Virus record (IMG/VR): IMGVR_UViG_2718217789_000012
Length of the DNA: 9,269 bases
Reading direction: 5' to 3' (one strand)
Source: a virus
Lineage: Duplodnaviria > Heunggongvirae > Uroviricota > Caudoviricetes
Shown: in pieces, positions 3,353-3,590 of the stretch
Numbering within the stretch: position 1 is the first letter of the stretch
How the letters are laid out: every line of letters begins with the position of its first letter
Made by a program: the position numbers and the translations under genes
The notes under the pieces: model-generated
What the model saw: only the letters and a program-made list of their open reading frames with translations
What the model was told of the DNA's origin: nothing
The model's database searches: none

Positions 3353-3590
3353 ACCTCCTCTACCTCTCTACCCAATCATCTTTCAGGTCAGTAATGGCGC
3401 GGCTTTCAGATGGGTAGAGGGCTTTCGTGGCCCTCTACCCATCCTCTACCCGCTCCTCACAAACGACCTTAATCATGGTGGAGGGTGTAGAGGGCTTTTA
3501 TTTGCCTTCTACCTGCCCCTCTACCCACTTATCATATTGAATAATTTATATTTATTTTCTTTAGGTAGAAGAGGTAGAGGGCTTTTGTCT
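3353..3590. repeat. Iteron array flanking an AT-rich segment; putative replication origin of the element
   Basis: GGTAGAGGGCTTT-type motif in plus orientation at 3412-3425, 3487-3499 (variant GTAGAGGGC) and 3573-3585. The complement CTCTACC occurs at 3358-3364, 3366-3373, 3433-3439, 3444-3450 and 3519-3525. A perfect 11-bp inverted repeat GGGTAGAGGGC (3412-3422) / GCCCTCTACCC (3430-3440) is included. AT-rich stretch at 3527-3563. Located immediately 3' of the primase/helicase gene. Confidence 0.5.

What the first reader, a model, noticed from the sequence alone, without database searches (positions are those of the whole stretch)
3353..3590. Iteron plus AT-rich putative origin immediately 3' of the primase/helicase gene
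At least three plus-orientation and five opposite-orientation copies of a GGTAGAGGG(CTTT) motif flank a roughly 37-bp AT-rich segment. They include a perfect 11-bp inverted repeat with a 7-bp spacer. Iterons around an AT-rich unwinding element directly downstream of the replication-initiator gene is the standard origin architecture in chromosomal islands and P4-type replicons. The motif does not resemble the P4 type I octamer TGTTCACC as I recall it, so the initiator's specificity here would be distinct.
Basis: partly seen in the sequence, partly recalled or inferred. Interest (0 to 1): 0.45.

Follow-up and report, generated by a model that had tools for sequence, protein, structure and literature searches.

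The report
Replication origin of a phage satellite island
The repeat cluster is very probably the replication origin of a small phage-parasitic island (PICI) of E. coli O157:H7. It matches an origin already tested in a sister island, so it is an ordinary member of a known kind, but it carries a variant repeat sequence.

Summary
Eleven copies of GGTAGAGG (at most 1 mismatch) lie in 3357-3580, against about 0.09 expected there. All nine exact GGTAGA hexamers of the 9.3-kb window fall in this stretch. They bracket a 38-bp, 87% A+T segment (3526-3563), which is the least stable duplex in the window. A perfect 11-bp palindrome sits at 3412-3440.

The window is a PICI satellite inserted between clpS and cspD, at the att site used by the reference island EcCIIHE3034. 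The region aligns with the spacer after the initiator gene of EcCICFT073, whose pri-ori fragment drove plasmid replication (Fillol-Salom 2018). The two initiators are 93% identical.

The initiator's C-terminus is homologous to the phage P4 alpha origin-binding domain (PDB 1KA8).

Across 80 related loci the GGTAGA cores are conserved. The bases after the core fall into two classes: GGTAGAnGG (this window) and GGTAGAyAG (CFT073). The class tracks initiator residues 544 and 547, at the start of the putative recognition helix, in 78 of 80 loci. Physical linkage is not excluded.

Verdict: a new member of a known kind; low to moderate interest.

The parts
3353..3590 (.). The putative origin of replication (ori): the whole iteron cluster. 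It reads as three similar modules (3353-3427, 3428-3501, 3502-3590). Each module is two leftward-pointing iterons, a spacer, then one or two rightward-pointing iterons ending in GGGCTTT.
   Evidence: aligns with the EcCICFT073 and EcCIIHE3034 ori regions
3357..3372 (-). Iterons 10 and 11, counted from the initiator gene: GGTAGAGG (3357-3364) and GGTAGAGA (3365-3372)
   Evidence: present at the same offsets in 80 related loci
3381..3409 (.). A non-iteron block (contains CAGTAATGGCGCGGCTTTCAG) conserved across both iteron classes. Its function is unknown.
   Evidence: mean column entropy 0.28, against 0.80 for other spacers
3412..3440 (.). Perfect 11-bp palindrome with a 7-bp spacer, formed by iteron 9 (3413-3420, + strand) and iteron 8 (3432-3439, - strand)
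   Evidence: (I1)
3443..3450 (-). Iteron 7, GGTAGAGG
3477..3493 (+). Iterons 6 and 5, both degenerate: GGTGGAGG (3477-3484) and TGTAGAGG (3486-3493)
   Evidence: relatives have exact GGTAGA at these positions
3506..3525 (-). Iterons 4 and 3: GGTAGAAG (3506-3513) and GGTAGAGG (3518-3525). They point away from the AT-rich segment.
3526..3563 (.). AT-rich segment (87% A+T), the putative DNA-unwinding element
   Evidence: least stable 36-mer in the window
3564..3580 (+). Iterons 2 and 1: GGTAGAAG (3564-3571) and GGTAGAGG (3573-3580). They point away from the AT-rich segment.
3595..5349 (-). Initiator gene (584 aa). It has D5_N, an SF3 helicase P-loop (DUF5906) and a Pox_D5 C-terminal domain. It is 41% identical to P4 alpha residues 324-756 and 93% identical to the EcCICFT073 Pri-Rep.
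3622..3888 (-). Codes for residues 488-576, the putative winged-helix origin-binding domain
   Evidence: PDB 1KA8, P4 alpha origin-binding domain, E 5.7e-6; secondary structure (low confidence)
3709..3720 (-). Codons 544-547 (A-E-F-S). This patch co-varies with the iteron class and lies at the start of the putative recognition helix.
3355..3721 (.). The co-inherited block that tracks iteron class. It runs from codon ~543 of the initiator to the last iteron and has sharp edges on both sides.
3057..3308 (-). The next gene (83 aa, phrog_1231), 88% identical to its EcCICFT073 counterpart. Its ribosome-binding site and start codon bound the ori on the far side.

Best explanation
The region is the vegetative replication origin of a Gram-negative phage-inducible chromosomal island (PICI).

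Proposed mechanism:
1. The island's 584-aa P4-alpha-like protein (SF3 helicase plus a C-terminal winged-helix domain) binds the eleven RGGTAGAnGG iterons through that domain.
2. The iterons occur in pairs about one helical turn apart. The pairs on either side of the 38-bp AT-rich segment point away from it.
3. Binding melts the AT-rich segment, and the protein loads itself there as a hexameric helicase.
4. Replication of the excised island follows once a helper phage has induced it.

What is shown: the anatomy, the homology to a tested origin, the homology of the domain, and the conservation and co-variation of the repeats.

What is inferred: binding, melting at 3526-3563, and self-loading. 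These rest on the EcCICFT073, SaPI and P4 precedents.
For: 1. The repeats are strongly clustered, and the AT-rich segment is the least stable duplex in the window.
2. The window is a PICI. It has an integrase, AlpA, the initiator and genes all in one direction. The att core ATGATAGTTAT sits at 92-102 and again just beyond the window end, between clpS and cspD, as for EcCIIHE3034.
3. The region aligns column by column with the spacer after pri in EcCICFT073 and EcCIIHE3034, with iterons at the same places. The initiators are 93-94% identical. The EcCICFT073 pri-ori fragment replicates a plasmid and needs both pri and ori. [quoted passage not shown]
4. Residues 488-576 match the P4 alpha origin-binding domain 1KA8 (E 5.7e-6). 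Residues 93-432 match the SaPI5 PriRep helicase 7OLA (E 1.9e-14). SaPI Reps bind 6-12 iterons just downstream of rep through a C-terminal winged helix, with at least two iterons on each side of an AT-rich region pointing in opposite directions (PMC9371898). The pairs at 3506/3518 (-) and 3564/3573 (+) meet that rule.
5. In 62 distinct ori sequences from 80 loci the GGTAGA cores are far more conserved than the spacers: entropy 0.25 against 0.80, permutation p < 1e-4.
6. The iterons change in concert. There are two classes, GGTAGAnGG (42 loci) and GGTAGAyAG (38 loci). Of 175 variable initiator columns, only 544, 545 and 547 track the class. AEFS or ADFS goes with the G class in 42 of 42 loci, and NDFG with the A class in 37 of 38.
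7. Relatives at 52-54% identity in Serratia and Morganella carry different iterons (ACTGTTCAC, TGTTCAT) in the same position and arrangement.
8. G-class origins occur next to at least two different downstream modules.
Against: - There is no experiment on this island; everything rests on homology and comparison.
- The co-variation is confounded by linkage. Synonymous sites from codon ~543 to the stop also track the class, so the patch and the ori may simply be inherited together.
- Two loci (L035, L060) pair the AEFS patch with A-class iterons.
- The AT-rich segment is not central: two iterons lie on one side and nine on the other.
- In P4 the repeat element in this position is crr, not the initiation site.
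- In the published test, deleting the EcCICFT073 ori reduced colony numbers but did not abolish them.
- No primase domain is recognisable in the initiator, so priming is unexplained.
- The structure model of the C-terminal domain is low-confidence (pLDDT 52.6).
Confidence: 0.85

Rival explanations
1. The cluster is a crr-like element. It would be bound by the initiator and required in cis for replication, as P4 crr is, while strand opening and initiation happen somewhere else.
For: In P4 the element directly 3' of alpha is crr: two 120-bp repeats with five type-1 repeats each, in both orientations. The P4 ori is 4.5 kb away. The window cluster is likewise modular, with three similar units.
Against: There is no second iteron cluster in the window. 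All nine exact GGTAGA copies lie here, and the three other 1-mismatch hits are scattered singles within the chance expectation. The cluster contains the least stable duplex of the window. The EcCICFT073 pri-ori fragment alone sufficed for plasmid replication.
Confidence: 0.07
2. The repeats are operator or regulatory sites for another DNA-binding protein, from the island, the helper phage or the host. They would control transcription into the downstream packaging genes and would not act in replication.
For: The cluster lies between two co-directional gene blocks, just upstream of the next gene's ribosome-binding site. The conserved block 3381-3409 is unexplained.
Against: No sigma-70-like promoter was found in 2900-3900. 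The block that tracks the repeat class reaches into the initiator's DNA-binding domain but stops before the downstream gene. The homologous EcCICFT073 region acts in replication.
Confidence: 0.05
3. The repeats are a packaging signal (pac or cosB-like) recognised by the island's own small terminase subunit.
For: The island encodes a small terminase (1947-2570, Terminase_2). Terminase-binding sites are often repeated.
Against: Thirty loci carry the same G-class repeats with an SSB/PerC module and no match to this terminase within the about 1.5 kb of downstream flank examined. EcCICFT073 has the homologous repeats and a separate exact lambda-type cosN 3.5 kb away. There is no cosN in the region. 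The repeat class tracks the initiator, not the downstream module.
Confidence: 0.02

Closest known systems
EcCICFT073 / EcCIIHE3034 replication origin (Gram-negative PICI ori; Fillol-Salom et al. 2018, ISME J, PMC6092414)
   Same: The element is orthologous. It has the same position directly 3' of pri-rep, the same ~290-nt spacer, and 10-11 GGTAGA-core iterons at matching offsets and orientations. It shares the AT-rich segment, the conserved block and the same downstream 83-85-aa gene. The initiators are 93-94% identical. EcCIIHE3034 uses the same cspD-clpS att site.
   Different: The bases after the core differ: GGTAGAnGG here against GGTAGAyAG there. The initiator has A544/S547 in place of N544/G547. 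The two oris are about 82% identical, against about 93% for the protein. The packaging module differs: small terminase and no cosN here, against cos, a capsid gene and a decoration gene in CFT073. This island's ori has not been tested experimentally.
SaPI replication origins (SaPI1, SaPIbov1, SaPI5; Rep / PriRep self-loading helicases, PMC9371898)
   Same: It has the same logic. Six to twelve short iterons lie immediately downstream of the initiator gene, around an AT-rich region, with at least two iterons on each side pointing in opposite directions. The initiator is an SF3 helicase with a C-terminal winged helix. The helicase core is detectably homologous to PriRep5, PDB 7OLA.
   Different: The oris share no sequence similarity and the hosts differ (Gram-positive). 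The AT-rich region is roughly central in SaPIs, whereas here it is offset (2 iterons against 9). PriRep5 has an N-terminal primase that has no counterpart here (one search aligns only PriRep5 residues 304-639).
Satellite phage P4 alpha protein with its ori and crr
   Same: The initiator is homologous: 41% identity over alpha residues 324-756, which cover the helicase and the origin-binding domain 1KA8. Short repeats occur in both orientations, spaced 9-12 bp. A modular repeat element lies directly 3' of the initiator gene. The extended repeats look related: P4 CTGTTCACC against PICI CTGTCTACC or CCCTCTACC.
   Different: P4 has two separated elements, ori and crr, 4.5 kb apart; here there is one cluster. 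The octamer TGTTCACC is absent from the region. The Toprim primase half of alpha is missing. The element in this position in P4 is crr, not ori.

Membership tests
Gram-negative PICI replication origin (Fillol-Salom 2018) | Lies immediately 3' of the pri-rep (initiator) gene | tested here: met
   The cluster starts 15 nt after the stop codon of the 584-aa gene
Gram-negative PICI replication origin (Fillol-Salom 2018) | Two sets of iterons flank an AT-rich region | tested here: met
   Iterons at 3506/3518 (-) and 3564/3573 (+) flank 3526-3563 (87% A+T); seven more copies lie distally
Gram-negative PICI replication origin (Fillol-Salom 2018) | The host element is a PICI: integrase, AlpA, pri, unidirectional genes, a dedicated att site, about 8-15 kb | tested here: met
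   att core ATGATAGTTAT at both ends and the cspD-clpS site as for EcCIIHE3034
Gram-negative PICI replication origin (Fillol-Salom 2018) | Sequence homology to an experimentally validated PICI ori | tested here: met
   Aligns with the EcCICFT073 ori with iterons in register; the initiators are 93% identical
Gram-negative PICI replication origin (Fillol-Salom 2018) | Supports initiator-dependent autonomous replication | not testable with these tools
   Published only for EcCICFT073
SaPI-type ori | [quoted passage not shown] | tested here: met
   Eleven iterons; the flanking pairs diverge from the AT-rich segment (rule quoted)
SaPI-type ori | The initiator is an SF3 helicase with a C-terminal winged-helix iteron-binding domain | tested here: met
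   7OLA E 1.9e-14 and 1KA8 E 5.7e-6. DNA binding itself was not tested.
SaPI-type ori | Common descent of the ori sequence | not tested
   No SaPI ori sequence was compared here. The ori resemblance rests on shared architecture; only the helicase core of the initiator is detectably homologous.
P4 ori/crr replicon | Type-1 octamer TGTTCACC as the initiator-binding repeat | tested here: not met
   No hit in 3309-3594 at up to 1 mismatch. P4 has 16 annotated copies.
P4 ori/crr replicon | Two separated cis elements (ori and crr), both carrying the repeats | tested here: not met
   There is a single cluster in the window. About 180 nt at the integrase end of the island lie outside the window.
P4 ori/crr replicon | Alpha-type initiator: primase plus SF3 helicase plus winged-helix origin-binding domain | tested here: inconclusive
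   The helicase and origin-binding domain are homologous (41% identity). The primase half is absent, and the N-terminal 140 aa have no family match.

The most novel reading that the evidence does not exclude
E. coli PICI replicons whose initiators are more than 90% identical fall into at least two origin-specificity groups. One uses GGTAGAnGG iterons with A544/S547. The other uses GGTAGAyAG with N544/G547. On this reading the switch is made by two or three residues at the start of the winged-helix recognition helix. The exchangeable unit runs exactly from that helix to the last iteron (window 3355-3721). This would be a natural, minimal recoding of initiator-origin recognition. It could let two PICIs replicate in one cell without cross-talk, and it forms a graded series back to the P4 type-1 repeat.
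Probability: 0.4. Interest if true: 0.45.

Novelty: new member of a known kind. Interest (0 to 1): 0.3.

Why it matters
The main value is annotation. It places the origin of a PICI carried by some E. coli O157:H7 cattle and human isolates, which RefSeq annotates only as 'DNA primase family protein | hypothetical protein'. It confirms that the published Gram-negative PICI ori architecture extends to this island.

The two iteron classes and the matching two-residue patch offer a cheap, directly testable model of how an initiator and its origin change specificity together. They may also bear on whether co-resident satellites compete for replication. The concept is already established for SaPIs and for plasmid iterons, so the gain is incremental.

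Tried and rejected
- Rfam scan of 2900-3900 at E <= 1 gave only two meaningless sub-threshold hits, a plant miRNA and a coronavirus UTR. An RNA element was rejected.
- The promoter and terminator scan found no sigma-70-like site in the region and no terminator in the cluster.
- The DnaA-box scan gave no hit in 3309-3594 at up to 2 mismatches, and the window-wide count equals chance. A DnaA-type origin was rejected.
- The lambda cosN scan gave nothing in the region. A cos site was rejected.
- Tandem Repeats Finder does not call the ~75-87-nt modules, and their alignment is only 70% identical. I describe the three-module layout but do not claim a duplication.
- The genome-contig scan returned only three loci. 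The 80 IMG/VR loci carried the comparison instead.
- The search for homologous proteins returned only proteins at least 94% identical, which were useless as a deep alignment. The single-sequence AlphaFold model of residues 476-584 was therefore poor (pLDDT 52.6). Its Foldseek search gave no significant hit; the best, at E about 1, were ORC/Cdc6 winged helices. Only the model's secondary-structure order (three helices and a hairpin) is used, and with caution.
- The literature search for TGTTCACC was swamped by primer sequences. The P4 repeats were read from the P4 GenBank record instead.
- PADLOC scan of the low-GC ORF 7276-8049 and three others gave no hit.

Full report
**1. The observation**

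The pattern GGTAGAGG with at most one mismatch occurs 14 times in the 9269-base window. The expectation is 3.75 +/- 1.8, and none of 200 shuffles reached 14. Eleven of the 14 lie in 3357-3580, a 224-nt span where about 0.09 would be expected.

- Five copies are on the + strand: 3413, 3477, 3486, 3564, 3573.
- Six copies are on the - strand: 3357, 3365, 3432, 3443, 3506, 3518.
- All nine exact GGTAGA hexamers of the window, on either strand, fall in 3359-3578.
- The palindrome GGGTAGAGGGC-N7-GCCCTCTACCC at 3412-3440 is perfect.
- The AT-rich segment 3526-3563 is 87% A+T. It is the single least stable 36-mer of the window: -33.5 against -48.3 +/- 4.2 kcal/mol.

The one correction concerns symmetry: two iterons lie between the gene and the AT-rich segment, and nine lie beyond it.

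The cluster reads as three similar units: 3353-3427, 3428-3501 and 3502-3590. Each has two leftward iterons, a spacer, and one or two rightward iterons ending in GGGCTTT. Only the third spacer is AT-rich. Tandem Repeats Finder does not call these units, so I treat this as a layout, not a proven duplication.

**2. Context**

The window is 100% identical to a stretch of several E. coli O157:H7 chromosomes, for example NZ_CP062736.1. It is an island of about 9.35 kb between clpS and cspD.

The 11-bp core ATGATAGTTAT occurs at window 92-102 and again about 174 nt past the window end. This is the att core and site listed for the reference PICIs EcCIIHE3034 and EcCI18098 (PMC6092414 Table S1).

The annotated island genes, apart from a small YlcI/YnfO-family gene, lie on the - strand:

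| Coordinates | Gene |
|---|---|
| 8046-9269 | integrase |
| 7276-8049 | low-GC orphan ORF |
| 6960-7184 | AlpA (PF05930, E 3e-16) |
| 5346-5645 | DUF4222 protein |
| 3595-5349 | 584-aa initiator |
| 3353-3590 | the iteron cluster |
| 3057-3308 | 83-aa ORF |
| 1947-2570 | small terminase subunit |
| 861-1784 | HK97-like capsid homologue |

This is the gene order of a Gram-negative PICI.

**3. Homology to a tested origin**

The spacer after the initiator gene aligns with the corresponding spacers of EcCIIHE3034 and EcCICFT073, with the iterons in register. The initiators are 94% and 93% identical. The gene after the spacer is 88% identical.

Fillol-Salom et al. [quoted passage not shown] They showed that an EcCICFT073 pri-ori fragment maintains a temperature-sensitive plasmid, and that this depends on both pri and ori. 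The region in the window is the orthologue of that element.

**4. The initiator**

- Pfam finds D5_N, DUF5906 (the SF3 helicase P-loop) and Pox_D5.
- Residues 488-576 match the crystal structure of the P4 alpha origin-binding domain (1KA8, E 5.7e-6).
- Residues 93-432 match the SaPI5 PriRep helicase (7OLA, E 1.9e-14).
- Against full-length P4 alpha the match is 41% identity over alpha residues 324-756 only.
- The N-terminal ~140 residues have no family hit even at E <= 10.

The protein therefore has the helicase and origin-binding parts of alpha but no recognisable primase domain. The 'primase' label is inherited from the family name.

SaPI Reps of the same superfamily bind iterons through a C-terminal winged helix. 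They melt the AT-rich centre without ATP and load themselves (PMC9371898). This is the basis for the inferred mechanism.

**5. Comparison across relatives**

Eighty IMG/VR loci with initiators 91-98% identical were fetched, in addition to the reference islands. Almost all have 10-11 GGTAGA cores in the 300 nt after the stop codon.

The cores sit at conserved offsets and orientations from the stop: 14-, 23-, [AT-rich], 71+, 83+, 101-, 110-, 146+, 157+, 174-, 224+, 232+.

Column entropy in 62 distinct sequences:

| Columns | Mean entropy |
|---|---|
| Six-base cores | 0.25 (33 of 66 columns invariant) |
| Ordinary spacers | 0.80 |
| Three bases after the core | 1.05 |

The difference between cores and the rest has permutation p < 1e-4. 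A 29-nt non-iteron block (3381-3409) is as conserved as the cores and remains unexplained.

**6. Two iteron classes and the initiator**

The bases after the core are bimodal. Forty-two loci, including the window, have RGGTAGAnGG (position 9 is G in 84% of sites). Thirty-eight loci, including CFT073 and IHE3034, have RGGTAGAyAG (position 9 is A in 91%). All copies within one element change together.

Of 175 variable columns in the initiator, only 544, 545 and 547 carry substantial information about the class (mutual information 0.91, 0.64 and 0.91; the next highest is 0.34).

- A-(E/D)-F-S goes with the G class in 42 of 42 loci.
- N-D-F-G goes with the A class in 37 of 38 loci.

Placement of these residues:

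- The two conserved tyrosines that mark helix alpha-2 of the P4 domain (PMC2777425) align with Y525 and Y528.
- Residues 544-547 therefore open the following helix, alpha-3.
- Alpha-3 is the recognition helix in winged-helix proteins.
- The low-confidence model gives the same order of elements: helices at 490-508, 521-535 and 543-556, then a hairpin at 563-572.

**7. The linkage caveat**

At the nucleotide level the class-associated sites form one block. It runs from codon ~543 to about 240 nt past the stop, and it includes synonymous third positions. Co-inheritance alone could therefore explain the association.

Two points speak for more than proximity. Upstream, the block stops abruptly at the start of alpha-3. 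Downstream, it stops right after the last iteron, and the adjacent ORF, only tens of bases further on, shows no strong association.

Against strict specificity, loci L035 and L060 carry a short G-class patch (AEFS) inside an otherwise A-class gene end and ori. Only a swap experiment can settle this.

**8. Deeper relatives and P4**

Initiators at 52-54% identity in Serratia and Morganella have ACTGTTCAC and TGTTCAT repeats directly after the stop. The repeats come in pairs about 10 bp apart, in both orientations. These resemble the P4 type-1 repeat.

In the P4 record the type-1 repeats (TGTTCACC) occur in two places. One is crr, which lies directly 3' of alpha as two 120-bp units of five repeats each. 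The other is ori, 4.5 kb away.

- The window cluster is in the crr position but is the only cluster present.
- TGTTCACC itself is absent from it.
- With flanks the consensus sequences form a series: P4 aCTGTTCACC, PICI A class CTrTCTACC, window CCyTCTACC. This suggests descent with modification. That is an inference.

**9. Rival explanations**

- Packaging signal: unlikely. The same G-class repeats occur in 30 loci with an SSB/PerC module in place of this island's terminase. CFT073 has a separate exact cosN. The region has none.
- Operator array: disfavoured. There is no promoter-like site, and the region is coupled to the initiator's DNA-binding domain.
- RNA element: no support.
- DnaA boxes: absent.
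- crr-like enhancer role: cannot be fully excluded without mapping initiation.

**10. Verdict**

The finding is real and correctly interpreted. It is the origin of a PICI, orthologous to a published and functionally tested one. It differs in the bases after the iteron core and in a matching two- or three-residue patch of the initiator. It is a new member of a known kind. Interest is low to moderate, and it comes mainly from the testable specificity switch.

Noticed in passing
window 3595-5349 (- strand), residues 1-140: The 'DNA primase family protein' aligns to P4 alpha only over its helicase and origin-binding half (alpha residues 324-756). Its N-terminal ~140 aa have no Pfam hit even at E <= 10. 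No primase catalytic domain is recognisable, so how the replicon is primed is open.
   Followed up: partly
window 3381-3409: A 29-nt non-iteron block (contains CAGTAATGGCGCGGCTTTCAG) inside the ori is as conserved as the iteron cores, across both iteron classes. Its function is unknown. Part of it, AATGGCGCGG, recurs at 3255-3264.
   Followed up: partly
window 861-2570 (- strand): The packaging module differs from EcCICFT073. It has a Terminase_2 small subunit (1947-2570), a 53-aa ORF (1774-1935) resembling an internal piece of the same terminase family, and a weak HK97-fold capsid homologue (861-1784). There is no lambda-type cosN, whereas EcCICFT073 has an exact one. This suggests headful (pac) packaging and possibly capsid remodelling.
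   Followed up: partly
window 7276-8049 (- strand): A 257-aa ORF between the integrase and AlpA lies in a markedly low-GC stretch (0.27-0.35). It has no Pfam, PHROG or PADLOC match and is a candidate accessory or defence cargo gene.
   Followed up: partly
window 92-102 and about 174 nt beyond the window end (L001 8092-8102 and 17443-17453): Direct repeats of ATGATAGTTAT bound the island between clpS and cspD. This is the att core published for EcCIIHE3034 and EcCI18098. The window therefore misses the last ~180 nt of the island.
   Followed up: yes
L035 and L060 (IMG/VR loci), last ~130 nt of the initiator gene: These are natural recombinants. A ~30-40-nt G-class patch encoding AEFS sits in an otherwise A-class gene end and ori. 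They are the only mismatched initiator/iteron pairs among the 80 loci.
   Followed up: partly
L023 and L071 (same IMG genome, 2703718778): Two PICIs of this initiator family co-reside in one genome and belong to different iteron classes (G and A). This is a single case but is consistent with compatibility between classes.
   Followed up: no
L004 4300-4520 (Serratia aquatilis) and L005 3885-4160 (Morganella morganii): Relatives of the initiator at 52-54% identity carry P4-like iterons (ACTGTTCAC, TGTTCAT) directly after the stop codon, in the same paired, two-orientation layout.
   Followed up: partly
window 4196-4207 (- strand): GGGCGGCGACCC, one mismatch from lambda cosN, lies inside the initiator coding sequence. 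It is also present in the EcCICFT073 gene (L086 6384-6395). It is probably a coding coincidence.
   Followed up: no
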